Below are positions 4,963 to 47,202 of a stretch of DNA of 64,000 nucleotides, in pieces. The stretch spans positions 5,197,802 to 5,261,801 of the forward strand of contig CH464491.1 of the NCBI GenBank assembly GCA_000002445.1, given 5' to 3'. Numbering within the stretch: position 1 is the first letter of the stretch; the number at the start of each line of letters is the position of its first letter. The translations under genes and the position numbers were made by a program. The notes under the pieces were generated by a model. It was not told the DNA's origin. It saw only the letters and a list, made by a program, of their open reading frames with translations, and did no database searches. Source of the stretch: Trypanosoma brucei. Taxonomy: Eukaryota.

Positions 4963-5039
4963 CCCTCGCGATGCCGGCCACCTCAACGTGGTGCCAGGGT
5001 CCAGTACCCCGTATCATCGGGGAAAGCCAAGAGCCAGCA
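4963..5039 (+). promoter_or_regulatory. Pr77-like 77-nt 5' hallmark of ingi/RIME. In L1Tc this element is an internal promoter and HDV-like ribozyme.
   Basis: Sequence matches the conserved 5' element CCCTGGCG..GCCGGCCACCTCAACGTGGTGCCAGGGTCCAGTACCCCGTATCATC. The functional assignment is from the literature, not from this sequence. Confidence 0.6.
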
Positions 5040-5186
5040 GAGTTCCTTTCATGAGGAACACTGCTGTGCTCCGGCTACGGCATCATACAGCACAGGGATC
5101 AGCAGCGTCTTGCTGGGACACCGTTCTTCATTTGTCTGTCCCTGGGGACGTGCCAGCGTGCCATCAACAGTATCATCCGCACTAAG

Positions 5187-8100
5187 ATGCTGCTGTCCGG
5201 TGATGTGGAAGAGAATCCCGGACCGTCGTTGCGCGGGATGCAGTGGAACTGCGCCGGGGTATCTCAAGGAAAGAGATTAGCACTCCACAAAACCCTTGTT
5301 GATGAGCGGATCGCCTTTTGTCTGTTGAGCGAGACAAGGATGACGCCTGGAGAGGCGGCTTGCTTTAGCGTTGCTGGCTACCAACATCACGGAATAGCTC
5401 GTAACTTCAAAGGAGGTGGTGTATCAATACTAGTGAGGGGGGACCTACCAGTCGAGACCGGTATGGCCGTTGTTGGTCGCATTGAACAAGTGCATGCAAC
5501 AATTCACCTTGCACGTGGAACGGCGCTGACTGTCACGTCGGCATACATCCCACCAAAACACACCTTCACGGCAACTGACCTAGATACGCTTCTGACAACT
5601 GACGGTGCCCAGCTCATCGGTGCAGACGCTAACGCACACGCGTTGGCATGGGATCGCGCGAGCCCACCAAATACAAGGGGTGAAACCCTCACACAGTGGT
5701 GCATTGACAATTAGTTTCTGGTCTGCAACACTGGTGAGTGCACCAGGTACGCGCGCCACCACGGGGAGTCCACCCCTGATGTGACACTGTCAAGGAATTG
5801 CACAGTGCACACGTGGACATCGCTGTATTCTCCCGATAGCGATCACCATCACATATTTTTCGACGTTATCGTTGGAGACGACACAGATGCACTGAGTTGC
5901 CCGCGGCTTCGAAAGCCCATGTACGCATGGCTAAAAGCTGACTGGAGGAATATCCGTCTCAAGGTTGACGAGCTCTGCAGGAAAATTAATAGAGAGAAGA
6001 ACGTCAACACCCTGGAACAGAAATTGAGCTTCGCCATCCGCATTGCGACGAAGGTCTCCGTCCCCCGTGGCTGCAGAGCAACGGCATCACATTGGACACC
6101 TGAGCTCGCGAAACTCGATGAAGAGATCGCTGGATGCGGACCCTCCCACCGAAGGGAAAAGTTGGTAGCCACGCGTAAGCAGATCCTGGACCGTACCACA
6201 AAGAAGAGATGGAGCACGCTATGCTCCAGACTTGCGGTGTCAGACCGCTGCAGTTGGCACATTGTCAAGAAGGTATATCCGCCACGACCACTAACCACAC
6301 CGGCTGTACTTGTTGATAACGCGGCCATCACGGACTACTGTCAAGCTGAGAGGTTCATTAAACTGTACTCGTCCCGCGCAAGAAGGCACCCCGACTCACA
6401 CCCACCGGCACCAATAAAGACGATAGCGAGTGAGTTCAGTCCCATCACGATGGCTGAACTACGGAAATCGATCAAACAACTTCCGAGTGGATCCACAGCC
6501 GGACCTAATTGCTTATACAACGAGGCACTACAACATCTCGGTAGAACAGCGTTGAATGTTGTTCTGAGGCTATTCAATGAGAGCCTACGAACGGGAGTCG
6601 TGCCGCCTGCATGGAAGACTGGTGTTATCATCCCCATCCTGAAGGCCGGAAAAAAGGCGGAGGACCTCGATTCTTACAGGCCAGTGACGCTCACGAGCTG
6701 TCTCTACAAAGTCATGGAGCGCATAATTGCCGCGAGACTTAGAGACACTGTTGAGTCCCAGCTGACGCCGCAGCAATCAGGCTTTCGCCCCGGATGCTCA
6801 ACGCTCGAACAACTCCTGCACGTCCGCGCTGCCCTCCGCCGTCCCACGCACCAATCTCGTACGGGTGCTGTATTTGTCGACTACGAGAAGGCATTCGATA
6901 CAGTAGACCACGACAAAATTGCGAGGGAAATGCACAGAATGAAGGTATCACCCCACATTGTGAAGTGGTGCGTATCATTTCTGAGTAACCGAACTGGCAG
7001 AGTGAGATTCAAGGAGAAGCTTTCCAGAAGCAGAACATTTGAGCGAGGAGTGCCACAAGGAACTGTCCTTGGCCCAATCATGTTCATTATTGTCATGAAC
7101 TCGTTGAGCCAACGCCTTGCAGAAGTGCCGTTACTGCAGCACGGATTCTTTGCAGACGACCTGACGCTACTTGCGAGGCACACAGAGAGGGATGTCATCA
7201 ACCACACACTACAATGCGGTCTAAACGTGGTGTTACAGTGGTCAAAAGAGTACTTCATGTCTGTCAACGTAGCGAAAACAAAGTGCACACTCTTCGGGTG
7301 TATAGAGCGTCACCCCCTTACATTACAACTGGACGGCGAAAGAATAGGAGCTGACAGGACACCGAAGCTTCTAGGAGTAACATTCCAGTGTCTGCAAGGG
7401 ATGGCAACACATGCGGCCAAAACGAGACGCAAGATGGATTTCAGACTACTGCAGATAGCAGCCATCTCAGCTTCTACATGGGGGCCAAGACGACAAGTAC
7501 TGAGAGCTTTTTATCTAGCACTCGTACAGGCACACACCATGTATGGCATTGAGGTATGGTACTGGGACGCTTCGGAACGAAGTCGCGACCTCCTTGCATC
7601 AGCACAACACAAAGCCAGTCGCATCATAGCCGGCATACCACATGGGACGCGCAAAGAGGACTCTCTGCTGGAAGCAAACCTCCTGCCACTCAAGACGACC
7701 ACTCTTGTGCGCAGCATGAAATTCATGCTGATGTGTGAGTCACGAGGCGGATGTTTGCGGCGCAGTGCTGAATAAGTATACCACAGCAAACACCCAGTCA
7801 GAGTCTTACATTCCCGCATCATGCGGTCCTATCCCCAACTCCGCATTGAGCCACGCGAGCAACCACTAGAGACATCGACGCTCCGCCACAGCTGCCGACC
7901 GCTATTTCACACGCAGATAAAGCCTGTGTGCGCTGATGACCCTGACGATGTCAAAAGGGAGGCTTCCGAAAAGTGGATTGAACGGCATTTTGCACGGAGG
8001 GGGAAGGAGCCACCGCGGCGAGAGCACTACGAATTGTGGACTGATGGATGCGTGTCCCTCGGTGAGAAGTCCGGAGCAACTGCCCTGCTCTATAGAAACA

Positions 8101-9955
8101 ACACGCTGATTTGCGCACCCAAAACTGGAGCAGGGGAACTCTCATGCAGTTACAGAGCGGAATGCTTAGCATTAGAGATAGGACTGCAACGGCTGCTGAA
8201 ATGGCTTCCGGCATACAGAAGCACAACGAGCAGGTTGTCCATCTTCTCTGACTCGCTGTCAATGTTAACAGCACTGCAGACAGGCCCCCTAGCCGTAACG
8301 GACCCAATTCTAAGACGACTATGGAGGCTTCTGTTTCAAGTTCAGAGAAGGAAGATACGTATCCGACTGCAATTTGTGTTTGGCCATTGTGGCGTGAAAC
8401 GGAATGAGGTTTGTGACGAAATGGCCAAAAAGGCCGCAGATTTACCACAGTTGCGAGACACATGGATCCCCAACATCATTGCTTATGCGAAGCGAGTGCT
8501 TAGGTCGGAAGAAGTCTATGAGAACACTCATAGGTTTGGTATCACGGGCAACCACTTTCCAACAAAACCTAAGAAAGAAGAACTGACGAGGGAGGAAGAA
8601 ACGGCACTGGCACGCTTTCGGGTTGGGTCCTCAAGACACTATGGCTGGATGTTGCGAAAGATCAACCCGAGTGTGCCTCCACAGTGCCGATGGTGCAACC
8701 CGCAACATGCAGAGATAGGGCCAACAATACAAACAGCCCTACCTATTGCGACACGCACTCTTCAGAGAACCTCCGAACCGACCAAATGTACGGAATGTGA
8801 TGCCACATACCAATGCCGCTCGAGTGCTGTAACGCACATGGTAAACATGGCTTTGTGCGAGCTGATGCCCTCAGGAGGATCAAATACGGCGATGCAACAC
8901 CTGCAGTGGACATCCCCCCGGAGTCCCCTCCAGTGGTGGCGATCGTTCCTCTACCATTCGAGCACACGAGTCCAGATGAGACCGCAGGTGCTTCATTGTA
9001 CCCTCTGTACCTCCAAATTCGCAGTGCCAGGCCGACTATTACACCACCTTAGAACAATACATGGCATAGGCAGCGGTAGTTTGCCGCGTGAAAAGGGGGC
9101 GAGAGAACGAGGACTCAGTGCAAGGAGATGGTAGAGCTCCAGCAGCGCCAGCCTCTCAGGATACACGGAAGCTGCCGTTTCAATGTGACCTGTGCGAGCC
9201 GAGCTTCGGTACACGTTCTTCCCTGTCACTACACAAAAAATTCAAACATAAGAGCATAGTGACGGAGGACGGTACCGTGGTGGTGGTGCAACTCCCTCGT
9301 AAGCGTGCCCGTGAGGGAAACGTTGACGTCCCGGGGAAGGGCGAGGTGCAGTGTGGTGTGTGCCAAAAAGTGCTCAGTTGCAGGGACTCCCTCATCCGAC
9401 ACTGTAAGGCTTTCCACAAAGGTGAGGGAGTCGAGCTTAAATGCAGCAAAAGCACAAAATTGTGTGCCACTGATTCCCCGCATACAAACACATACATGTA
9501 CATCCATCTTGGTGTGCCCGACATGCGGAAGGCAGTGTGCTAGCAAAACTGGCCTCACCCTACATCAAAAGAAGATGCACGGTATGAAGGTAGAGCGCGC
9601 TGTTACCAGCCAACGCGGCGAATGCGAAGAAACGTCGCTGCACTTGATGAGCTGTCCCGGTTTGAAGGAGTTACGTGTCAGGTTTGCGGTAGAAGGTGAG
9701 TGTGTGCAGGATGTATGTTTCTCTAAAAGGCTGGCGCAGTTTCTCATTGCGGTTGAACGGAGCCGGCCACAGGTGAAGTCCTCACCTAAGGTAACAGTCA
9801 TACAACCCACTCTCCCTTCTGCAACTTCCCCCCTTATTGCCGAGTGTGGAGCTAGCAGGAAAAGCACCGGACGCAGGAATAGTCCAGACACCCTTAGAGA
9901 CAGAGGAGGTATGCAGTCAACAAGCAACAGAAACAGAAAGAGGGGGAGAGAATAA
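5187..9955 (+). pseudogene. ingi polyprotein pseudogene (2A, AP endonuclease, reverse transcriptase, RNase H, zinc fingers) broken into ORFs 5187-5714, 5781-7775, 7821-9134, 9088-9543 and 9305-9955.
   Basis: These ORFs are collinear with, and near-identical to, the 34559-35302 plus 35369-39535 ORFs of the second copy. They are interrupted by in-frame stops and frameshifts. Confidence 0.85.
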
Positions 9956-10227
9956 TAAACGAATAACAAAAATCAAAACAAAAGGATTGGTAATTGACAT
10001 CTTTGAGAGAGTCCGGGGTGGGGGGTTTCTCGCCCCATCTGCTGTATTCCGTTCAACTTCGGAGCTACAATAAAAAATTATAGAGAGTGTGTTAGGGTGA
10101 ATAAAAAAGGGAGACTCTGCCACAGTCGCCAGACCGATAGCATATCAGTGCTCTACGGTGATGGCTGATGGCCGCGCCAGTGGGGGGAAACTCCCACGAA
10201 GGCACGAAGAAAATTCCAAAAAAAAAA

Positions 10228-24347: not shown

Positions 24348-24600
24348 TTAACACATCAAAGCAGTAAAAGCAGCAGCCATACTCAGAGCCAATTTCTTAT
24401 TGACAAGGATACTGAAAGAGAGTCACTCAGGTTTGGGAAGTTTGCCTTCTTTGTCTGTGAAAGTTATCCAACCACATTTACAAGGGGCACAAACTGGCAG
24501 TCCTTCATTCTTGTTTTTCACCAGATGTCTGATCCTGGTGGCTAGAGAAATTAGTTTGCCAGTCTTTCCCTCACGATTCTTGGCTTGCCTTTTCTAGTTC
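24348..24600 (-). pseudogene. VSG: Orphan VSG 3' fragment: part of a C-terminal domain plus a GPI signal.
   Basis: The reverse complement of 24348-24420 gives ...SLSVSLSILVNKKLALSMAAAFTALMC*. A 16-mer-like GTGTTAAAATACATTA lies at 24306-24321. The telomere-like tract is immediately downstream, at lower coordinates. Confidence 0.7.
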
Positions 24601-31089: not shown

Positions 31090-32538
31090 TTAGAAACCTA
31101 GCAATATAAACAAATCCGCAAGCAAAAGAGGGGCCTCATTAATGACAAATGAGTTGTTTCCTGTGGTATTTGTAGGTTTGGCATCATTTTCCGCTTTCAC
31201 TCCCTCTTTAAGTTTGCATTTGCCATCGCTGTGTTCGCAATCTTTATCTGCTGTACATTTACTTTTTTCTGTTTCTTCTTGGCATTTTTCTGGTGTTGGT
31301 TTAGCTTGTAGGGATGTTTCTTTGCACTCTTTGCTTGTTGGAGCTGTATATCCACTTGCTCCAATTGCTATTGTTATATGATCACTAGTTGTGATAGCGG
31401 TAATCTTGCCTTTGAAGTCTTTGCTTCCTATACTGCAAGAAAAATCAGGTTCTCTTATTTTATTCCATACCTTTTCTTTAAAGTCGCTTTCTTCTTTGCC
31501 GTAGTTTGATTCGATAAAGGTATTGATTACTTTCTGCTGCTCTTTGCTGTCCGTGTCGTATTTTTCGTTCGGGCCTTTTACGACTGCTAGTACACTGCGC
31601 CGTAGTGGCTCATTCGTTTGTGTCGTGGCCGCTTTGTCTAGGCTTGTGTACGTTGCTTTGCAGGGCTTGTTTAGGTTGAAGTTGTATAGACGCCAGTTAA
31701 GGTGGCGCTTGTGGGCTTTGAGATACGTTTTCCCGTTTTCTTCCTCGCTTGCCTTCTCTGGTTGGCTGTGGGCTGATGCTTGCATATCGATCGTGTCTCT
31801 TGTGTCTTCTTCGAGAAATTTCTTGCTTTGAGTCTTGGTTTTGTGCCTTGCCGCTTGTGCCGTGCACGCTTTCCCCTGGCCGTCGCAGTGCCCTAGGCAA
31901 ATCTGCCGGTTGCCAGGTGTCGAGTGTTCTTTTAGTTTGAAGAGGGTTAGCGTCTTGAGTGCTGATATGGCTACACCCGTTGCTGCTTTTGCTATGCTGC
32001 CGGCTTCTTTGTTAGTGCACGTATCTCCGTGTATTGTCTCGAATGTCGCCGTATCTTGTACCTTTCCGCCGGCGCTTAACGTGCTTGCTGCCGTTCCTGC
32101 AGACGAAGCCGTTGTAATTTCTGCTAGTTCTGCCACTGCCCAGTTTCTGCCTGCTTGGATATTGGCTGAGCGTGCCGCGTCGGCCGCCGCTTTGTTGCAT
32201 GTTGCGAGTCTTGAAATCAGCTTCTGCTGCTCCGCTAGTACTAGGCCTATCAGCGGGGTCAACGCAGTTGGTTTCGTGTTCCATTGAGGCAGTGCTAGTG
32301 CCGTTTCTAGTTGAAGCAGGTCTGCGTTGGCTTTTGATATTTCGTTGATGAGTTCGCTCCGTTGTTCGTCTATCGAATTTGCTAGCTGCATTATGTAAAC
32401 CGCGGCACTGCAGGCATCTCCCTGTTTGGCTTCTTGGGTGCTTTCTGCGCTGCCGTGTCTTATAATTAGTTGTGCCACCGCTGTGGCTATTAGTAAGGCT
32501 TTTGGCACACTTCGGTTGTCGCTTGCGCGTTGCAGCAT
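31090..32538 (-). CDS. VSG: Intact VSG of 482 aa.
   Basis: N-terminus MLQRASDNRSVPKALLIATAVAQLIIRHGSAESTQEAKQGDACSAAVYIMQLA; C-terminal domain Cys-rich ...CQEETEKSKCTADKDCEHSDGKCKLKEGVKAENDAKPTNTTGNNSFVINEAPLLLADLFILLGF*. Confidence 0.9.
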   Translation of the reverse strand: MLQRASDNRSVPKALLIATAVAQLIIRHGSAESTQEAKQGDACSAAVYIMQLANSIDEQRSELINEISKANADLLQLETALALPQWNTKPTALTPLIGLVLAEQQKLISRLATCNKAAADAARSANIQAGRNWAVAELAEITTASSAGTAASTLSAGGKVQDTATFETIHGDTCTNKEAGSIAKAATGVAISALKTLTLFKLKEHSTPGNRQICLGHCDGQGKACTAQAARHKTKTQSKKFLEEDTRDTIDMQASAHSQPEKASEEENGKTYLKAHKRHLNWRLYNFNLNKPCKATYTSLDKAATTQTNEPLRRSVLAVVKGPNEKYDTDSKEQQKVINTFIESNYGKEESDFKEKVWNKIREPDFSCSIGSKDFKGKITAITTSDHITIAIGASGYTAPTSKECKETSLQAKPTPEKCQEETEKSKCTADKDCEHSDGKCKLKEGVKAENDAKPTNTTGNNSFVINEAPLLLADLFILLGF

Positions 32539-34255: not shown

Positions 34256-34462
34256 TAAAAAAACAAAATAAACTAGTTTATAATAGTGCTCAATTTTCAT
34301 ACCCTCTTACTTTGTAGCTTTAAGCCACTTTCTTACTCATTTACAAATTTTTACATTTTCATTAAAAAATGTTAAAGTACTTCACATTTTAGAATTTTTA
34401 TAAATTTCTCTGAAAATAGCAAATTTGAGAATATTATAAAAATTTTCATTAACTTTAAAACA

Positions 34463-34550
34463 CCAAGGCCACAAAAGTAGCATCCATACTCAGAAACAAT
34501 TTCTTATGGACCAGGAAACTGGAATCCTGGCGCTTGCCTTCAATCCAACC
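34463..34550 (-). pseudogene. VSG: 3' end of a VSG (GPI signal and last C-terminal-domain codons), abutting the 5' end of the ingi copy.
   Basis: The reverse complement translates to ...GWIEGKRQDSSFLVHKKLFLSMDATFVALVF*, with the stop at 34463-34465. Confidence 0.75.
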
Positions 34551-34627
34551 CCCTGGCGATGCCGGCCACCTCAACGTGGTGCCAGGGTCCAGTACCCCGT
34601 ATCATCTGTGGAAGCCAAGAGCCAGCA
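34551..34627 (+). promoter_or_regulatory. Pr77-like 5' hallmark of ingi/RIME.
   Basis: Same conserved 77-nt 5' element as the copy at 4963. Confidence 0.6.
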
Positions 34628-34774
34628 GCGTTCCTTTCATGGGGAACACTGCTGTGCTCCGGCTACGGCATCATACAGCACAGGGATCAGCAGCGTCTTG
34701 CTGGGACACCGTTTTTCATTTGTCGGTCCCTGGGCACGTGCCAGCGTGCCATCAGCAGTATCATCCGCACTAAG

Positions 34775-35302
34775 ATGCTGCTGTCCGGTGATGTGGAAGA
34801 GAATCCCGGCCCATCGTTGCGCGGGATGCAGTGGAACTGCGCCGGGCTATCTCAAGAAAAGAGATTAGCACACCACAAAACCCTTGTTGATGAGCGGATC
34901 GCCTTTTGTCTGTTGAGCGAGACAAGGATGACGCCTGGAGAGGCGGCTTGCTTTAGCGTTGCTGGCTACCAACATCACGGAATAGCTCGTAACTTCAAAG
35001 GAGGTGGTGTATCAATACTAGTGAGGGGGGACCTACCAGTCGAGACCGGTATGGCCGTTGTTGGTCGCATTGAACAAGTGCATGCAACAATTCACCTTGC
35101 ACGTGGAACGGCGCTGACTGTCACGTCGGCATACATCCCACCAAAACACACCTTCACGGCAACTGACCTAGATACGCTTCTGACAACTGACGGTGCCCAG
35201 CTCATCGGTGCAGACGCTAACGCACACGCGTTGGCATGGGATCGCGCGAGCCCACCAAATACAAGGGGTGAAACCCTCACACAGTGGTGCATTGACAATT
35301 AG
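34775..35302 (+). CDS. ingi ORF, N-terminal segment: 2A-like peptide plus most of the AP endonuclease domain, ending at an in-frame TAG (35300-35302).
   Basis: MLLSGDVEENPGPSLRGMQWNCAGLSQEKRLAHHKTLVDERIAFCLLSETRMTPGEAACFSVAGYQHHGIARNFKGGGVSILVRGD.... ORF 34559 and ORF 35369 are in the same frame, so a single TAG separates them. The APE catalytic SDH motif lies just after the stop. Confidence 0.8.
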   Translation: MLLSGDVEENPGPSLRGMQWNCAGLSQEKRLAHHKTLVDERIAFCLLSETRMTPGEAACFSVAGYQHHGIARNFKGGGVSILVRGDLPVETGMAVVGRIEQVHATIHLARGTALTVTSAYIPPKHTFTATDLDTLLTTDGAQLIGADANAHALAWDRASPPNTRGETLTQWCIDN

Positions 35303-35368
35303 TTTCTGGTCTGCAACACTGGTGAGTGCACCAGGTACGCGCGCCACCACGGGGAGTCCACCCCTGAT

Positions 35369-38300
35369 GTGACACTGTCAAGGAATTGCACAGTGTACAC
35401 GTGGACATCGCTGTATTCTCCCGATAGCGATCACCATCACATATTTTTCGACGTTATCGTTGGAGACGACACAGATGCACTGAGTTGCCCGCGGCTTCGA
35501 AAGCCCATGTACGCATGGCTAAAAGCTGACTGGAGGAATATCCGTCTCAAGGTTGACGAGCTCTGCAGGAAAATTAATAGAGAGAAGAACGTCAACACCC
35601 TGGAACAGAAATTGAGCTTCGCCATCCGCATTGCGACGAAGGTCTCCGTCCCCCGTGGCTGCAGAGCAACGGCACCACATTGGACACCTGAGCTCGCGAA
35701 ACTCGATGAAGAGATCGCTGGATGCGGACCCTCCCACCGAAGGGAAAAGTTGGTAGCCACGCGTAAGCAGATCCTGGACCGTACCACAAAGAAGAAATGG
35801 AGCACGCTATGCTCCAGACTTGCGGTGTCAGACCGCTGCAGTTGGCACATTGTCAAGAAGGTATATCCGCCACGACCACTAACCACACCGGCGGTACTTG
35901 TTGATAACGCGGCCATCACGGACTACTGTCAAGCTGAGAGGTTCATTAAACTGTACTCGTCCCGCGCAAAAAGGCACCCCGACTCACACCCACCGGCACC
36001 AATAAAGACGATAGCGAGTGAGTTCAGTCCCATCACGATGGCTGAACTACGGAAATCGATCAAACAACTTCCGAGTGGATCCACAGCCGGACCTAATTGC
36101 TTATACAACGAGGCACTACAACATCTCGGTAGAACAGCGTTGAATGTTGTTCTGAGGCTATTCAATGAGAGCCTACGAACGGGAGTCGTGCCGCCTGCAT
36201 GGAAGACTGGTGTTATCATCCCCATCCTGAAGGCCGGAAAAAAGGCGGAGGACCTCGATTCTTACAGGCCAGTGACGCTCACGAGCTGTCTCTGCAAAGT
36301 CATGGAGCGCATAATTGCCGCGAGGCTTAGAGACACTGTTGAGTCCCAGCTGACGCCGCAGCAATCAGGCTTTCGCCCCGGATGCTCAACGCTCGAACAA
36401 CTCCTGCACGTCCACGCTGCCCTCTGCCTCCCCACGCACCAATCTCGTACGGGTGCTGTATTTGTCGACTACGAGAAGGCATTCGATACAGTAGACCACG
36501 ACAAAATTGCGAGGGAAATGCACAGAATGAAGGTATCACCCCACATTGTGAAGTGGTGCGTATCATTTCTGAGTAACCGAACTGGCAGAGTGAGATTCAA
36601 GGAGAAGCTTTCCAGAAGCAGAACATTTGAGCGAGGAGTGCCACAAGGAACTGTCCTTGGCCCAATCATGTTCATTATTGTCATGAACTCGTTGAGCCAA
36701 CGCCTTGCAGAAGTGCCGTTACTGCAGCACGGATTCTTTGCAGACGACCTGACGCTACTTGCGAGGCACACAGAGAGGGATGTCATCAACCACACACTAC
36801 AATGCGGTCTAAACGTGGTGTTACGGTGGTCAAAAGAGTACTTCATGTCTGTCAACGTAGCGAAAACAAAGTGCACACTCTTCGGGTGTATAGAGCGTCA
36901 CCCCCTTACATTACAACTGGACGGCGAAAGAATAGGAGCTGACAGGACACCGAAGCTTCTAGGAGTAACATTCCAGAGTCTGCAAGGGATGGCAACACAT
37001 GCGGCCAAAACGAGACGCAAGATGGATTTCAGACTACTGCAGATAGCAGCCATCTCAGCTTCTACATGGGGGCTAAGACGACAAGTACTGAGAGCTTTTT
37101 ATCTAGCACTCGTACAGGCACACACCATGTATGGCATTGAGGTATGGTACTGGGACGCTTCGGAACGAAGTCGCGACCTCCTTGCATCAGCACAACACAA
37201 AGCCAGTCGCATCATAGCCGGCATACCACATGGGACGCGCAAAGAGGACTCTCTGCTGGAAGCAAACCTCCTGCCACTCAAGACGACCACTCTTGTGCGC
37301 AGCATGAAATTCATGCTGATGTGTGAGTCACGAGGCGGATGTTTGCGGCGCAGTGCTGAAGAAGTATACCACAGCAAACACCCAGTCAGAGTCTTACATT
37401 CCCGCATCATGCTGTCCTACCCCCACCTCCGCATTGAGCCACGCGAGCAACCACTAGAGACATCGACGCTCCGCCACAGCTGCCGACCGCTATTTCACAC
37501 GCAGATAAAGCCTGTGTGCGCTGATGACCCTGACGATGTCAAAAGCGAGGCTTCCGAAAAGTGGATTGCACGGCATTTTGCACGGAGGGGGAAGGAGCCA
37601 CAGCGGCGAGAGCACTACGAATTGTGGACTGATGGATGCGTGTCCCTCGGTGAGAAGTCCGGAGCAACTGCCCTGCTCTATAGAAACAACACGCTGATTT
37701 GCGCACCCAAAACTGGAGCAGGGGAACTCTCATGCAGTTACAGAGCGGAATGCGTAGCATTAGAGATAGGACTGCAACGGCTGCTGAAATGGCTTCCGGC
37801 ATACAGAAGCACAACGAGCAGGTTGTCCATCTTCTCTGACTCGCTGTCAATGTTAACAGAACTGCAGACAGGCCCCCTAGCCGTAACGGACCCAATTCTA
37901 AGACGACTATGGAGGCTTCTGCTTCAAGTTCAGAGAAGGAAGATACGTATCCGACTGCAATTTGTGTTTGGCCATTGTGGCGTGAAACGGAATGAGGTTT
38001 GCGATGACATGGCCAAAAAGGCCGCTGATTTACCACAGTTGCGAAATACATGGATCCCCGACATCATTGCTTATGCGAAGCGAGTGCTTAGGTCGGAAGA
38101 AGTCTATGAGAACACTCATAGGTTTGGTATCACGGGCAACCACTTTCCAACAAAACCTAAGAAAGAAGAACTGACGAGGGAGGAAGAAACGGCACTGGCA
38201 CGCTTTCGGGTTGGATCTTCAAGACACTATGGATGGATGTTGCGAAAGATCAACCCGAGTGTGCCTCCACAGTGCCGATGGTGTAACCCGCAACATGCAG

Positions 38301-39535
38301 CGATAGGGCCAACAATACGAATGCCCCCAACTGTTGCGACACGCACTCTTCAGAGAACCTCCGAACCGACCAAATGTACGGAGTGTGATGCCACATACCA
38401 ATGCCGCTCGAGTTCTGTAACGCACATGGTAAACAAACACGGCTTTGTGCGAGCTGATGCCCTCAGGAGGATCAAATACGGCGATGCAACACCTGCAGTG
38501 GACATCCCCCCGGAGTCCCCTCCAGTGGTGGCGATCGTTCCTCTACCATCGAGCACACGAGTCCCGATGAGACTGCAGCTGCTTCATTGTACCCTCTGTA
38601 CCTCCAAATTCGCAGTGCCAGGCCGACTATTACACCACCTTAGAACAATACATGGCATAGGCAGCGGTAGTTGCCGCGTGAAAAGGGGTCGAGAGAACGA
38701 AGACTCATTGCAAGGAGATGGTAGAGCCCCAGCAGCGCTAGCCCCTCAGGATACACGGAAGCTGCCGTTTCAATGTGACCTGTGCGAGCCGAGCTTCGGT
38801 ACACGTTCTTCCCTGTCACTACACAAGAAATTCAAACATAAGAGCATAGTGACGGAGGACGGTACCGTGGTGTTGGTGCAATTCCCTCGTAAGCGTGCCC
38901 GTGAGGGAAACGTTGACGTCCCGGGGAAGGGCGAGGTGCAGTGTGGTGTGTGCCAAAAAGTGCTCAGTTGCAGGGACTCCCTCATCCGACACTGTAAGGC
39001 TTTCCACAAAGGTGAGGGAGTGGAGCTTAAATGCAGCAAAAGCACAAAATTGTGTGCCACTGATTCCCCGCATACAAACGCATCCATCTTGGTGTGCCCG
39101 ACATGCGGAAGGCAGTGTGCTAGCAAAACTGGCCTCACCCTACATCAAAAGAAGATGCACGGTATGAAGGTAGAGCGCGCTGTTACCAGCCAACGCGGCG
39201 ACTGCGAAGAAACGTCACTGCACCTGATGAGCTGTCCCGGTTTGAAGGAGTTACGTGTCAGGTTTGCGGTAGAAGGTGTGTGTGTGCAGGATGTATGTTT
39301 CTCTAAAAGGCTGGCGCAGTTTCTCATTGCGGTTGAACGGAGCCGGCCGCAGGTGAAGTCCTCACCTAATGTAACAGTCATACAACCCACTCTCCCTTCT
39401 GCAACTTCCCCCCTTATTGCCGAGTGTGGAGCTAGCAGGAAAAGCACCGGACGCAGGAATAGTCCAGACACCCTCAGAGACAGAGGAGGTATGCAGTCAA
39501 CAAGCAACAGAAACAGAAAGAGGGGGAGAGAATAA
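35369..39535 (+). CDS. ingi ORF, main segment of 1388 aa: the end of the AP endonuclease, then reverse transcriptase, RNase H and a C2H2 zinc-finger domain.
   Basis: Longest ORF in the window. The reverse-transcriptase, RNase H and zinc-finger motifs are listed under the element. It is collinear with the fragmented ORFs of the copy at 4963-10227. Confidence 0.9.
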   Translation: MTLSRNCTVYTWTSLYSPDSDHHHIFFDVIVGDDTDALSCPRLRKPMYAWLKADWRNIRLKVDELCRKINREKNVNTLEQKLSFAIRIATKVSVPRGCRATAPHWTPELAKLDEEIAGCGPSHRREKLVATRKQILDRTTKKKWSTLCSRLAVSDRCSWHIVKKVYPPRPLTTPAVLVDNAAITDYCQAERFIKLYSSRAKRHPDSHPPAPIKTIASEFSPITMAELRKSIKQLPSGSTAGPNCLYNEALQHLGRTALNVVLRLFNESLRTGVVPPAWKTGVIIPILKAGKKAEDLDSYRPVTLTSCLCKVMERIIAARLRDTVESQLTPQQSGFRPGCSTLEQLLHVHAALCLPTHQSRTGAVFVDYEKAFDTVDHDKIAREMHRMKVSPHIVKWCVSFLSNRTGRVRFKEKLSRSRTFERGVPQGTVLGPIMFIIVMNSLSQRLAEVPLLQHGFFADDLTLLARHTERDVINHTLQCGLNVVLRWSKEYFMSVNVAKTKCTLFGCIERHPLTLQLDGERIGADRTPKLLGVTFQSLQGMATHAAKTRRKMDFRLLQIAAISASTWGLRRQVLRAFYLALVQAHTMYGIEVWYWDASERSRDLLASAQHKASRIIAGIPHGTRKEDSLLEANLLPLKTTTLVRSMKFMLMCESRGGCLRRSAEEVYHSKHPVRVLHSRIMLSYPHLRIEPREQPLETSTLRHSCRPLFHTQIKPVCADDPDDVKSEASEKWIARHFARRGKEPQRREHYELWTDGCVSLGEKSGATALLYRNNTLICAPKTGAGELSCSYRAECVALEIGLQRLLKWLPAYRSTTSRLSIFSDSLSMLTELQTGPLAVTDPILRRLWRLLLQVQRRKIRIRLQFVFGHCGVKRNEVCDDMAKKAADLPQLRNTWIPDIIAYAKRVLRSEEVYENTHRFGITGNHFPTKPKKEELTREEETALARFRVGSSRHYGWMLRKINPSVPPQCRWCNPQHAAIGPTIRMPPTVATRTLQRTSEPTKCTECDATYQCRSSSVTHMVNKHGFVRADALRRIKYGDATPAVDIPPESPPVVAIVPLPSSTRVPMRLQLLHCTLCTSKFAVPGRLLHHLRTIHGIGSGSCRVKRGRENEDSLQGDGRAPAALAPQDTRKLPFQCDLCEPSFGTRSSLSLHKKFKHKSIVTEDGTVVLVQFPRKRAREGNVDVPGKGEVQCGVCQKVLSCRDSLIRHCKAFHKGEGVELKCSKSTKLCATDSPHTNASILVCPTCGRQCASKTGLTLHQKKMHGMKVERAVTSQRGDCEETSLHLMSCPGLKELRVRFAVEGVCVQDVCFSKRLAQFLIAVERSRPQVKSSPNVTVIQPTLPSATSPLIAECGASRKSTGRRNSPDTLRDRGGMQSTSNRNRKRGRE

Positions 39536-39806
39536 TAAACGAATAACAAAAATCAAAACAGAAGGATTGGTAATTGACATCTTTGAGAGAGTCCGGAGTG
39601 GGGGGCTTCTTGCCCCATCTGCTGTATTCCGTTCAACTGCGGAGCTACAACAAAACGTTATAGAGAGTGTGTTAGGGTGAATAAAAAAGGGAGACTCTGC
39701 CACAGTCGCCAGACCGATAGCATCTCAGGACTCTACGGTGATGGCTGATGGCCGCGCCAGTGAGGGGAAACTCCCACGAAGGCAGGGAGAAAATTCCAAA
39801 AAAAAA

Positions 39807-40740
39807 TTTTTATTGTTATCCCTTTAGCTTGGCATAACTCATTTGCTACTGCCTCCGCCGTGGTTAGCATTTGGCGGTATAACATGGTTTGCGGACGGTT
39901 TGTCTGCTTGATATGCTGCGTGCATGTTGATGCTCTCTCCTCGGCTGCAAAAGCTACTTTGGCTTCCTGGACACCGAGCCTGCGTTTGCCGTCCCAAGGC
40001 TCTTGGCGCTATTGAGGCACCCGCCAGTTTCGAAGACGTTGTTGCTGGAGGTGCTGATGTCGCCTTTGCCGCGCGTATCGAGTTTCATTTGTGGTAGTTG
40101 AAACAACTCGTCGGGATGTAGCTTCATGACTCCTATTTTTTTAGCTCCGATGTTGCCGCCGTTATGTGGGGGCCGCTAGTAAGATCTGCTTGGTAGTCTT
40201 TGGCTGCAGTTTGTTGGAATGTAACGGCAATGTCGCATTTTTTTCTGTGCCCGCTAGTAAATTGTCTTGCCCTGTCCCTGATTTGCCGTTTGAGATGACG
40301 GCTTGTGCTCTGTCGGTGGCGTAGATGGCCATTTTAAGTGGTGCTATTCTGGAGTTCAGGGTTAGAAACGCGTTTTCCAGGGCTTTCAGTCCTGTGCTGA
40401 GTTGCTGTGCTTGTTCTTGCGCCCGCCACCGTTGTTAGTGCAAAAAGTGCCACGTACTCTGTTTTGGTTTCGGCATCTTGAGCTAATGTGGCTGCTGTTG
40501 AAAGTTGTATGATGTCATTTGAAAGCTCTGGTAGCCTGTTGTCTGCCATTGTGATTTGCGTACTAAATTCGCTGCTTAATTTCTGTAGGTATCCAATCTC
40601 CTTTCACGGCGTATTAACAGCATCAGTGAGTGTTCTCTTTGCCGGTTGTGCTGCCGCCAATTTGGCGGTTAGAGTAAAGAGTACAAAGCCTGTGGTTTCC
40701 GCGCGCATTGACTAGCTTTTTATCCACCGCTACTACCTTC
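39807..40740 (-). pseudogene. VSG: Probable 5' part of the VSG pseudogene that is interrupted by the ingi copy; heavily degenerate and its upstream limit is uncertain.
   Basis: Minus-strand frames give VSG-like Ala/Thr/Leu/Lys-rich peptides, e.g. ...SNDIIQLSTAATLAQDAETKTEYVALFALTTVAGARTSTATQ. Plus-strand ORF 40488-40715 has the antisense low-complexity character. There is no long ORF. A 70-bp repeat lies upstream at 42236-42320. Confidence 0.4.
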
Positions 40741-45766: not shown

Positions 45767-47202
45767 TAGAATGTTGCAAAACTCACAAAAACAGCAGCCA
45801 CACTCAGGGCCAATTTCTTATTGACAAGAAAACAGGAGTCCTACACTCTTTGCCCTTCCATTTGCAATTTTCTGTGCATTCTGCCTCTTTTTGATTAGAT
45901 TTGCAATCTGAGACTGCTACCCCACCTTCTTTTTTTCCATATTCCTGTTTTAGCTTGTAATTTGAATCCTTTACGCACTTCTTTTTTCCACCTTCTTCGA
46001 CTTCTTTGCAGCCTTCTTTGCAGTTATCTCCTGGCCCTTTCTTTTGACAACTCTCATCTGTCTCGGTAATCCTTGTGGTTTCTGTGTTTTTTTTGCTTTT
46101 TCTTCCTGCAATTGATTTGCTAAGTTTGCAACGGCTTCTCTGTTCATTATATGCTGAAGAAGTATGCTTTTTCTTAGTTCACCATCATCGCCAACCGTGC
46201 TGACTGCTTTATCGGCTGTGTTTTTGCCCTCGATTTTTTTGACAGCCACCTTTTCTAGTGCTTCCATGATCTTTTTTGGTTGCTGGCCTGTTTTTGGTGC
46301 TATTGAGTCTATTAATTGCTGAGCCCACCCTTCACCGTCTGGCGGTTTTGCTTGGGGATGCTTTTCTTGTAGTACTATTATTATCATGGATGTCACTTTA
46401 TTTCCTGAATTTAATTCTCGATTACGTTGGCAGCCGTTTCACCGCATGTTGATGGGTTGGCTGTCTTGAGGTCTACTAGGGCTTTGTAAAGCTTTTTCGG
46501 CATCGTGTTGGCCGCTCCACCGTTGAGCTGCCATTGAGATGCTATGGCGTGCAGCGAGCTGAATACTGCTGCGTTGTTGCCGCTATCAGCCGCAGTGACC
46601 TTTATCAGCTGCGACGCAAAGTCGTGGGGGCCTGATGACTGGAATAGGTCGGCCGCTGCCGGCACACCGCCGCTTTTGCGCAGAAACATGCATTTTGTAT
46701 TGTCTGTCCCGTCGAGCAAACTACCTGAATTCATGGTTGGAAAGCCGCTTGCTGATACTAGCCTGTCATCAAAGGGTTGCGGTTCGCCAGTTGTCGCGAA
46801 TTCTGGTGCCGTACATTCGAAATCGCCAATTTTTGTCGCCGTCACTGTCGTATTTTTTGTCGTGCTAAGGCAATAGCCCGTCGTGGCCCCACCGTTAGAA
46901 ACTGCCTTGAGTAAAGAGATAAATTCGGCAATGCCGCCCGCTGTGCTTGCGGCTCTGGCCGTTGCTGCGAGGCCCTTTTTCACAATGTCGTCATGCTGTT
47001 CGGTTGCTTGATCTACGCAGTCCTGGGCCGCCATGGCCATGGCATAGTACACCGGGCTCGTATTAGTATTTTGTGTCGCCGCTGCTCCTGCGAGTGCTTG
47101 TACTTGGACCTTGTTTGCTGCTGCAATTGCGTTCTTTATTGTCTGCGCTTTTTGACTTGCATGCTGTCCTATCTTGCTTAGAAACGCCGATAGTGTGCAC
47201 AA
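45767..47202 (-). pseudogene. VSG: VSG pseudogene: N-terminal domain ORF 46411-47202, C-terminal domain ORF 45971-46396 in another frame, and a GPI signal in a third frame ending at 45767. The true N-terminus may lie upstream of 47202.
   Basis: MCTLSAFLSKIGQHASQKAQTIKNAIAAANKVQVQALAGAAATQNTNT...YCLSTTKNTTVTATKIGDFECTAPEF...; the C-terminal part reads ...EGKNTADKAVSTVGDDG...KKTQKPQ.... The reverse complement of 45767-45840 gives DSCFLVNKKLALSVAAVFVSFATF*. A 70-bp repeat with an expanded (ATT)n lies upstream at 48001-48195. Confidence 0.75.

What the first reader, a model, noticed from the sequence alone, without database searches (positions are those of the whole stretch)
35300..35302. Both ingi copies carry the same in-frame TAG inside the AP endonuclease domain
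In the near-intact copy (34551-39806) the whole 2A, AP endonuclease, reverse transcriptase, RNase H and zinc-finger reading frame (34559 to 39535, frame 2) is broken only by TAG at 35300-35302 (..IDN*FLVCNTGE..). The degenerate copy has TAG at the homologous codon (5712-5714) on top of its private lesions. The stop sits before the SDH catalytic motif of the endonuclease, so the domain is split rather than tidily separated into two proteins. Either both copies descend from, or were converted against, the same dead template, or this lineage relies on stop-codon readthrough. A second autonomous-looking copy that is inactivated by a single shared codon is worth checking.
Basis: partly seen in the sequence, partly recalled or inferred. 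Interest (0 to 1): 0.5.

Follow-up and report, generated by a model that had tools for sequence, protein, structure and literature searches.

The report
Shared nonsense mutation in ingi pseudogenes
Two neighbouring copies of the trypanosome jumping gene ingi carry the same premature stop codon because they are sister copies of one already-broken ancestor, while every other copy sampled and the family consensus have a normal glutamine codon there, so this is ordinary pseudogene decay.

Summary
TAG sits at 35300-35302 and is the only internal stop in the 1659-codon frame 34559-39535. It also sits at the homologous codon 5712-5714 of the more decayed copy. It splits the AP-endonuclease domain before the SDH motif.

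The window is a VSG array of Trypanosoma brucei brucei TREU927. Outside the window I found no TAG at this codon:
- Nine other ingi copies read at DNA level (T. b. equiperdum, T. b. gambiense) all have AAC CAG where the window copies have AAT TAG.
- Six further annotated equiperdum proteins have Gln.
- One equiperdum copy is a fully open 1656-aa ORF.
- The consensus of the eight full-length or nearly full-length non-window copies is an uninterrupted 1657-codon ORF with CAG.

The two window copies are sisters. They are 98.2% identical to each other and 95.5-97.3% to the others. They share 35 derived substitutions and a 3-nt insertion spread along the element, and the TAG is one of these shared changes.

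Nothing supports readthrough. The stop is not conserved, there is no known readthrough context or significant downstream structure, and there is no detectable purifying selection after the split.

Other TREU927 copies could not be sampled. Verdict: ordinary, low interest.

The parts
34551..39806 (+). ingi copy B. It is full length (5256 nt), from the CCCTGGCG 5' signature to the A-run. It has no recognisable 12-bp target-site duplication.
34559..39535 (+). The single long reading frame of copy B: 1659 codons including the internal TAG and the terminal stop.
35299..35302 (+). Tandem CC>TT change (35299, 35300) that turns consensus AAC CAG (Asn-Gln) into AAT TAG (Asn-stop). The stop codon is 35300-35302, codon 248.
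34790..34813 (+). 2A-like motif DVEENPGP (residues 78-85).
   Evidence: read from the translation; for Met73 at 34775
34826..35443 (+). AP-endonuclease domain (about residues 90-295), cut by the TAG. GADANAH lies upstream of the stop. PDVTL and SDH (35426-35434) lie downstream.
   Evidence: PF03372 at 90-255 and PF14529 at 187-295 in intact P0068; only 187-246 in the window's truncated ORF; weak alignment to the R1Bm endonuclease 2ei9 with ADxNAH, DVTLS and SDH in register
36245..36973 (+). Reverse transcriptase domain (RVT_1).
37613..38026 (+). RNase H domain.
38768..38839 (+). C2H2 zinc finger (best-scoring Pfam stretch).
38157..38159 (+). In-frame 3-nt insertion (CTA). It is shared with copy A (8569-8571) and absent from all 8 non-window copies in the alignment. 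It is a second marker of common descent.
4963..10226 (+). ingi copy A. It is full length but degenerate, and is the sister of copy B (98.2% identity over ungapped columns).
5712..5714 (+). The same TAG at the homologous codon of copy A, preceded by the same AAT.
5052..5054 (+). Private nonsense codon TGA in copy A (TGG in copy B).
7773..7775 (+). Private nonsense codon TAA in copy A (GAA in copy B).
8842..9499 (+). Cluster of four private frameshifting indels in copy A: -4 after 8842, +1 at 8957, +1 at 9080, +10 at 9490-9499.

Best explanation
The TAG is an ordinary inactivating nonsense mutation. CAG (Gln248) became TAG, together with the adjacent synonymous AAC>AAT change. It arose once in a progenitor ingi copy of T. 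brucei brucei TREU927 and was inherited by two sister copies that now lie 29.6 kb apart in a VSG array. Translation from the element's ATG ends at codon 248. The product carries the 2A motif and the N-terminal half of the AP endonuclease but lacks the PDVTL and SDH catalytic motifs, the reverse transcriptase, RNase H and the zinc fingers. Both copies therefore cannot encode their own transposition.

Shown: the stop is absent from all other copies sampled and from the consensus. The two copies are sisters along their whole length. Homology stops exactly at the element ends.

Inferred: how the dead progenitor came to be present twice. The more likely route is retrotransposition of its RNA using proteins supplied in trans by intact ingi copies, which is how the non-coding RIME partner is thought to move. 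Flank exchange by recombination would then have erased the target-site duplications. Whole-element gene conversion of two resident copies remains possible. Copy B looks nearly intact only because it has not yet been hit a second time.
For: - **Sense codon elsewhere:** nine non-window ingi copies read at DNA level all have AAC CAG. Five of them (L002-L006) were retrieved through proteins that do not span the site, so they are unbiased for it, and so is L009.
- **Annotated proteins:** six further T. b. equiperdum proteins read WCIDNQFLVCN, and no database protein ends at WCIDN.
- **An intact copy exists:** RHW74236.1 (P0068) is an uninterrupted 1656-aa ORF with Gln at the site.
- **Open consensus:** the consensus of 5, and then of 8, non-window copies gives an open 1657-codon ORF with CAG. 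The reconstructed A/B ancestor has the TAG as its only internal stop.
- **Related species:** ingi-like proteins have Glu (T. grayi) or Asp (T. theileri) at this position.
- **Sister relationship:** A and B are 98.2% identical to each other and 95.5-97.3% to all others. They pair in the NJ tree. They share 35 derived substitutions spread from 34995 to 39586 plus a 3-nt insertion.
- **Flanks:** the flanks are unrelated, so this is not a segmental duplication.
- **No sign of selection after the split:** dN/dS is 0.44 for A and 0.73 for B, against 0.34-0.53 for plainly dead copies. The shared stem changes are about 21 nonsynonymous to 11 synonymous.
- **B's near-intactness needs no special explanation:** the probability of no further disruption is about 0.05's pooled nonsense-plus-indel rate. 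Taking the nonsense counts alone (11 in 673 substitutions), my own arithmetic gives about 0.5.
- **Literature:** potentially functional ingi encode a single long protein and mobilise RIME in trans (PMC2323293). ingi and RIME recombine and cause rearrangements (PMC2854126).
Against: - I could not sample any other ingi copy from TREU927 itself. All comparison copies come from T. b. equiperdum OVI and T. b. gambiense DAL972. A TAG-bearing subfamily with more members in TREU927 is therefore not excluded.
- Neither window copy has a target-site duplication, so retrotransposition of the dead progenitor is not demonstrated. However, only 2 of 9 copies retain one, so the absence is uninformative.
- Disruptions after the split are 6 in A and 0 in B. 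This asymmetry is mildly unusual (two-sided binomial about 0.03, my own calculation). Four of the six cluster within 650 nt of A and may not be independent.
- The dN/dS tests have little power at these counts.
Confidence: 0.88

Rival explanations
1. Stop-codon readthrough. UAG at codon 248 is decoded at a useful rate, for example by near-cognate Gln-tRNA, which would restore the consensus residue. Copy B would then still make the full 1657-aa protein and the TAG-bearing lineage would be autonomous.
For: Copy B has no other lesion in 1658 codons. The element was copied as a whole unit at least once after acquiring the TAG. From general knowledge, near-cognate decoding of UAG commonly inserts Gln, which is the consensus residue here.
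Against: - The stop is absent from 15 of 15 non-window copies or proteins and from the consensus.
- Intact copies that need no readthrough exist.
- The context AAU UAG UUU CUG matches neither the UAG-CARYYA nor any other readthrough motif I know.
- The 100 nt downstream fold no better than shuffles (z = -1.5, 17 of 200 shuffles as good), and the same sequence is present in CAG copies.
- Sister copy A went on to collect 2 stops and 4 frameshifts.
- The post-split dN/dS of B (0.73) is, if anything, higher than that of dead copies.
Confidence: 0.03
2. DNA-level homogenisation. Two older, independently inserted ingi copies in the VSG array were overwritten along their full length by gene conversion, either from each other or from a third TAG-bearing copy. 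No defective element was ever retrotransposed.
For: Both copies lie in a recombination-prone subtelomeric VSG array. Homology is bounded by the element. ingi and RIME are reported to recombine (PMC2854126). Most copies sampled have lost their target-site duplications, which shows frequent DNA-level exchange.
Against: Pure conversion of resident copies would leave their own target-site duplications intact, and neither copy has one. The 1.8% divergence between A and B is spread evenly, with no visible mosaic blocks. This rival concerns only the copying mechanism. It makes the same prediction about the TAG, namely that it was inherited from one dead template.
Confidence: 0.3
3. Sequencing, consensus or assembly artefact. 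The TAG is not present in the organism.
For: None found. Repeats are the usual place for assembly collapse.
Against: The same two-base change occurs in two copies that differ from each other at 96 other positions and 4 indels. They were therefore assembled as distinct sequences. The change is one of 35 shared lineage markers.
Confidence: 0.01

Closest known systems
Tbingi, the autonomous non-LTR retroposon of Trypanosoma brucei (ingi clade), in its common defective (pseudogene) form
   Same: Both copies are 5.25 kb with the CCCTGGCG... 5' signature and an A-rich 3' end. They have one long frame encoding 2A, AP endonuclease, RT, RNase H and C2H2 fingers. They are 95.5-97.3% identical in nucleotides to ingi copies of T. 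b. equiperdum and gambiense. The literature describes only a few copies as retrotransposition-competent (PMC2323293).
   Different: Nothing differs in kind. The particular lesion (Gln248 to TAG) is private to this pair among the copies sampled.
Intact ingi copy of T. b. equiperdum OVI (RHW74236.1; L008 10001-14971)
   Same: Same architecture and length. It is 96.9% identical to copy B in nucleotides, and the peptide around the site is identical apart from the stop itself.
   Different: It has CAG (Gln) at codon 248 and an uninterrupted 1656-aa ORF. It also keeps a near-perfect 12-bp target-site duplication.
RIME, the non-coding deletion derivative of ingi that is mobilised in trans
   Same: If the dead progenitor was copied by retrotransposition, it used proteins from other ingi copies, as RIME is thought to do (PMC2323293, PMC3820030).
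   Different: The window copies are full length. Trans-mobilisation is inferred here and not shown, because there is no target-site duplication.
Programmed UAG readthrough in retroelements and viruses (gag-pol of murine leukaemia virus; tobacco mosaic virus UAG-CARYYA)
   Same: There is an in-frame UAG upstream of a reverse-transcriptase frame.
   Different: In those systems the stop is conserved in all functional members, separates complete domains, and is followed by a defined context or pseudoknot. Here it is not conserved, it cuts a catalytic domain in two, and it lacks both the context and a significant structure.

Membership tests
Tbingi (T. brucei ingi retroposon) | Conserved 5' terminal signature (about 79 bp, beginning CCCTGGCG) and a length of about 5.25 kb | tested here: met
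   Copy B starts CCCTGGCGATGCCGGCCACCTCAACG and copy A starts CCCTCGCG.... The lengths are 5256 and 5264 nt. They align end to end with 7 other full-length copies.
Tbingi (T. brucei ingi retroposon) | [quoted passage not shown] | tested here: met
   Pfam gives PF03372/PF14529, PF00078, PF00075 and PF13894 in that order.
Tbingi (T. brucei ingi retroposon) | A-rich 3' end | tested here: met
   Both copies end in ..AATTCC followed by a run of about ten A.
Tbingi (T. brucei ingi retroposon) | 12-bp target-site duplication preceded by the ingi4 insertion signature | tested here: not met
   No direct repeat of 8 nt or more flanks either copy. The signature matches at best 7 of 10 (A) and 6 of 10 (B) specified positions. 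In the control, only L003 and L008p of 9 copies keep a duplication, so loss is common.
Tbingi (T. brucei ingi retroposon) | Terminal segments correspond to the two halves of RIME | not tested
   No RIME reference sequence was compared.
Potentially functional (autonomous) ingi | Single uninterrupted long ORF | tested here: not met
   TAG at codon 248 in both copies. Copy A has further stops and frameshifts.
Programmed stop-codon readthrough element | The stop codon is conserved among family members | tested here: not met
   Outside the window, 0 of 9 copies read at DNA level and 0 of 6 further proteins carry it.
Programmed stop-codon readthrough element | A stimulatory 3' context or RNA structure | tested here: not met
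   The context is UAG UUU CUG GUC. The downstream fold has z = -1.5. Rfam gives no hit anywhere in the window.
Programmed stop-codon readthrough element | Purifying selection on the frame downstream of the stop | tested here: inconclusive
   dN/dS after the split is 0.44 (A) and 0.73 (B), against 0.34-0.53 for dead copies. The counts are too small to separate the hypotheses, and copy A is demonstrably decaying.
Programmed stop-codon readthrough element | Translation continues across the stop | not testable with these tools
   This needs ribosome profiling or proteomics with reads or peptides unique to the TAG copies.

The most novel reading that the evidence does not exclude
The TAG-bearing ingi lineage is still mobile. 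Low-level near-cognate decoding of UAG as Gln would regenerate the consensus protein from copy B. A single-nonsense element would then remain weakly autonomous and could explain how the lineage was copied after acquiring the stop.
Probability: 0.03. Interest if true: 0.45.

Novelty: already known. Interest (0 to 1): 0.08.

Why it matters
It matters little. The result marks both window copies as non-autonomous ingi pseudogenes and shows that the near-intact look of copy B should not be read as evidence of a special decoding mechanism.

There is one small point of wider interest. A full-length but coding-dead ingi was duplicated as an exact unit. That is compatible with trans-mobilisation of defective full-length elements, as assumed for RIME, but it is equally compatible with recombination in the VSG array.

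Tried and rejected
**Searches that led nowhere**
- Exact-protein look-ups of the window's truncated ORF1 from Met1 and from Met73, and of a window VSG ORF (31090-32538), found nothing on record. I therefore could not recover the TAG allele, or the window's own locus, from other assemblies.
- Scans of JGI metagenome contigs and of prokaryotic genome contigs for the 29-mer with either allele gave 0 matches, as expected for a trypanosome sequence.
- No open-access paper found with the search tools mentions a stop at this ingi codon. Three key papers are not held: Bringaud 2009 Eukaryot Cell (PMC2756862), Bringaud 2004 Mol Biol Evol and Kimmel 1987 (PMC365235). One search was a poorly chosen query and returned nothing relevant.
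- An Rfam scan of the whole window gave no hits.

**Ideas considered and rejected**
- Segmental duplication of a VSG-array block: rejected because the flanks share only short low-complexity matches.
- Target-site duplications as proof of retrotransposition: absent, and shown by the control to be uninformative.
- Using frameshift counts in the equiperdum copies as a neutral decay rate: treated with caution. Many are single-base deletions (10 of 11 indels in L008m), which may be long-read assembly errors. That is my inference.

Full report
**1. Observation**

TAG occupies 35300-35302 in the context TGC ATT GAC AAT TAG TTT CTG. Translating 34559-39535 gives 1659 codons with a single internal stop at codon 248 (..TQWCIDN*FLVCNTGE..) and the terminal stop. 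The second copy carries the identical AAT TAG at 5709-5714.

The two elements align from 34551-39806 to 4963-10226 at 97.9% identity. They differ by 96 substitutions and 4 indels. Copy A has two additional nonsense codons (TGA at 5052-5054, TAA at 7773-7775) and four frameshifting indels between 8842 and 9499.

Pfam confirms the order endonuclease, RVT_1, RNase_H, C2H2 finger. In an intact relative the PF14529 endonuclease match runs over residues 187-295. In the window's truncated ORF it stops at residue 246, about profile position 64 of 117. The GADANAH motif lies before the stop, and PDVTL and SDH (residues 290-292, nt 35426-35434) lie after it. A weak alignment to the R1Bm endonuclease structure puts these motifs in register.

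**2. Source and setting**

Seven of the window's nine long minus-strand ORFs scanned match VSG families. Two are letter-perfect matches to annotated VSGs of Trypanosoma brucei brucei TREU927 on a 5.26-Mb chromosome (XP_829797.1 and XP_829798.1). The window is therefore a VSG array of the reference strain, with two ingi elements on the opposite strand 29.6 kb apart. A Rfam scan of the window found nothing.

**3. What other copies have at this codon**

A protein search across the site returned T. brucei-group fragments and ingi-like proteins of T. grayi and T. theileri. In the alignment the site is Gln in T. b. equiperdum, Glu in T. grayi and Asp in T. theileri.

I fetched the DNA around nine proteins and located the homologous codon by BLAST:
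- All nine non-window copies that contain the site read AAC CAG: L001, L002, L003, L004, L005, L006, L008 plus strand, L008 minus strand and L009. They come from T. b. equiperdum OVI and T. b. gambiense DAL972.
- Six of these were reached through proteins that do not cover the site, so they are an unbiased sample for it.
- The cluster listing added six more equiperdum proteins reading WCIDNQFLVCN. No protein ends at WCIDN.
- One of the DNA-level copies (L008, plus strand) encodes RHW74236.1, a complete 1656-aa ORF from MPATSTW.. to ..NRNRKRERE.
- The majority consensus of the non-window copies, each of them individually broken except that one, is an uninterrupted 1657-codon frame with CAG at codon 248.

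The family state is therefore a sense codon. This agrees with the published description that potentially functional ingi encode a single long protein (PMC2323293).

**4. Relationship of the two window copies**

In a ten-copy alignment A and B are 98.2% identical to each other and 95.5-97.3% to everything else. They form an exclusive pair in an otherwise star-like NJ tree.

At 35 positions A and B agree with each other and differ from the unanimous state of the eight other copies. These positions run from 34995 to 39586 and include the adjacent pair 35299 C>T and 35300 C>T that turns AAC CAG into AAT TAG. A and B also share a 3-nt in-frame insertion (38157-38159 in B, 8569-8571 in A) that no other copy has. 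The reconstructed A/B ancestor already has the TAG as its only internal stop.

The shared stop is therefore inherited, not convergent. It cannot be a base-calling artefact, because it sits in two sequences that were assembled as distinct.

**5. How the dead template came to be present twice**

Homology begins at the first base of the element and ends at the A-run. The 6 kb on either side share only short low-complexity matches. A segmental duplication of the array is therefore excluded.

Neither copy has a target-site duplication or a good ingi4 insertion signature. As a control, the same script finds a perfect 12-bp duplication at L003 and a near-perfect one at the intact L008 copy, but none at the other seven. 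Loss of the duplication is therefore the rule in this sample. This is consistent with reports that ingi and RIME recombine and cause rearrangements (PMC2854126).

I consider trans-complemented retrotransposition of the defective RNA somewhat more likely than whole-element gene conversion. Conversion alone would have preserved the resident duplications. This step is inference.

**6. Test of the readthrough idea**

- **Conservation:** the stop is not conserved (section 3).
- **Context:** UAG UUU CUG matches no readthrough motif known to me.
- **Structure:** the 111 nt around and after the stop fold at -37.7 kcal/mol against -32.6 +/- 3.4 for shuffles (z = -1.5). The same sequence follows CAG in the other copies.
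- **Selection after the split:** Nei-Gojobori dN/dS is 0.44 for A and 0.73 for B. It is 0.34-0.53 for the demonstrably dead copies measured against the consensus. Nothing suggests that B's frame has been protected, although the power is low.
- **Selection on the shared stem:** the A/B stem carries about 21 nonsynonymous, 11 synonymous and 1 nonsense change. This looks like drift in an already dead progenitor.
- **B's lack of further lesions:** this is unremarkable. One search's pooled nonsense-plus-frameshift rate in the dead copies gives a probability of zero hits of about 0.05 for B's 43 post-split ORF substitutions. That rate is probably inflated by single-base assembly errors in the equiperdum genome. 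From the nonsense counts alone (11 per 673 substitutions), my own arithmetic gives about 0.5.

**7. Comparison with what is known, and verdict**

These are two members of the well-described Tbingi family in its usual defective state. They fail the one criterion for a potentially functional copy, an uninterrupted ORF. They also fail the criteria for a programmed readthrough site.

The same-dead-template alternative is supported, and the readthrough alternative is not.

A genome-wide count of TAG against CAG in TREU927 and other strains remains the decisive, and easy, check.

Novelty: already known kind. Interest: low.

Noticed in passing
protein P0051 (XP_018644078.1), homologous to about window 34559-35290: A Schistosoma mansoni 'LOW QUALITY PROTEIN' (Smp_186480, on a 13-kb contig) sits in the same >=90%-identity cluster as the T. 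brucei ingi endonuclease fragment. The most likely cause is T. brucei DNA contaminating that assembly.
   Followed up: no
L008 9993-15243 (+) and 16902-22127 (-): In T. b. equiperdum the fully intact ingi copy (1656-aa ORF, near-perfect 12-bp target-site duplication) lies 1.7 kb from an inverted sister copy that is 98.3% identical. This is a second close pair, like the window's. The inverted copy carries ten single-base deletions, which may be assembly errors.
   Followed up: partly
window 38157-38159 and 8569-8571: A shared in-frame 3-nt insertion (CTA) is specific to the two window copies. It makes their frame one codon longer than the 1657-codon consensus.
   Followed up: yes
window 34455-34528, 24348-24417, 45784-45842: A stretch of about 60-70 nt just upstream of copy B recurs at about 80% identity at two other places in the VSG array. 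It was not identified.
   Followed up: no
window 34526-34540: Ten bases upstream of copy B, the sequence TCCTGGCGCTTGCC resembles the first 13 nt of the ingi 5' signature (CCCTGGCGATGCC). This could be chance or a vestige of an older element.
   Followed up: no
window 39807-39818; L001 7751-7762; L002 13768-13779: The 3' flanks directly after the A-run are similar T-rich strings (TTTTTATTGTTA, TTTTATGTGTGA, TTTTACTGTGTC) and look like ingi target sites, while the 5' flanks do not match them. This suggests that the 5' flank is the side usually exchanged.
   Followed up: partly
window 35299-35300, 35576-35577, 36066-36067: Several of the 35 lineage-specific changes are adjacent double substitutions (CC>TT, GG>AA, TG>AA). 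Overall, 19 of the 35 are G>A or C>T, against 3 in the reverse direction (all A>G).
   Followed up: partly
window 1-64000: The window is a VSG array of T. b. brucei TREU927. Seven of nine long minus-strand ORFs scanned match VSG families, several of them truncated. Both ingi copies lie on the opposite strand.
   Followed up: partly
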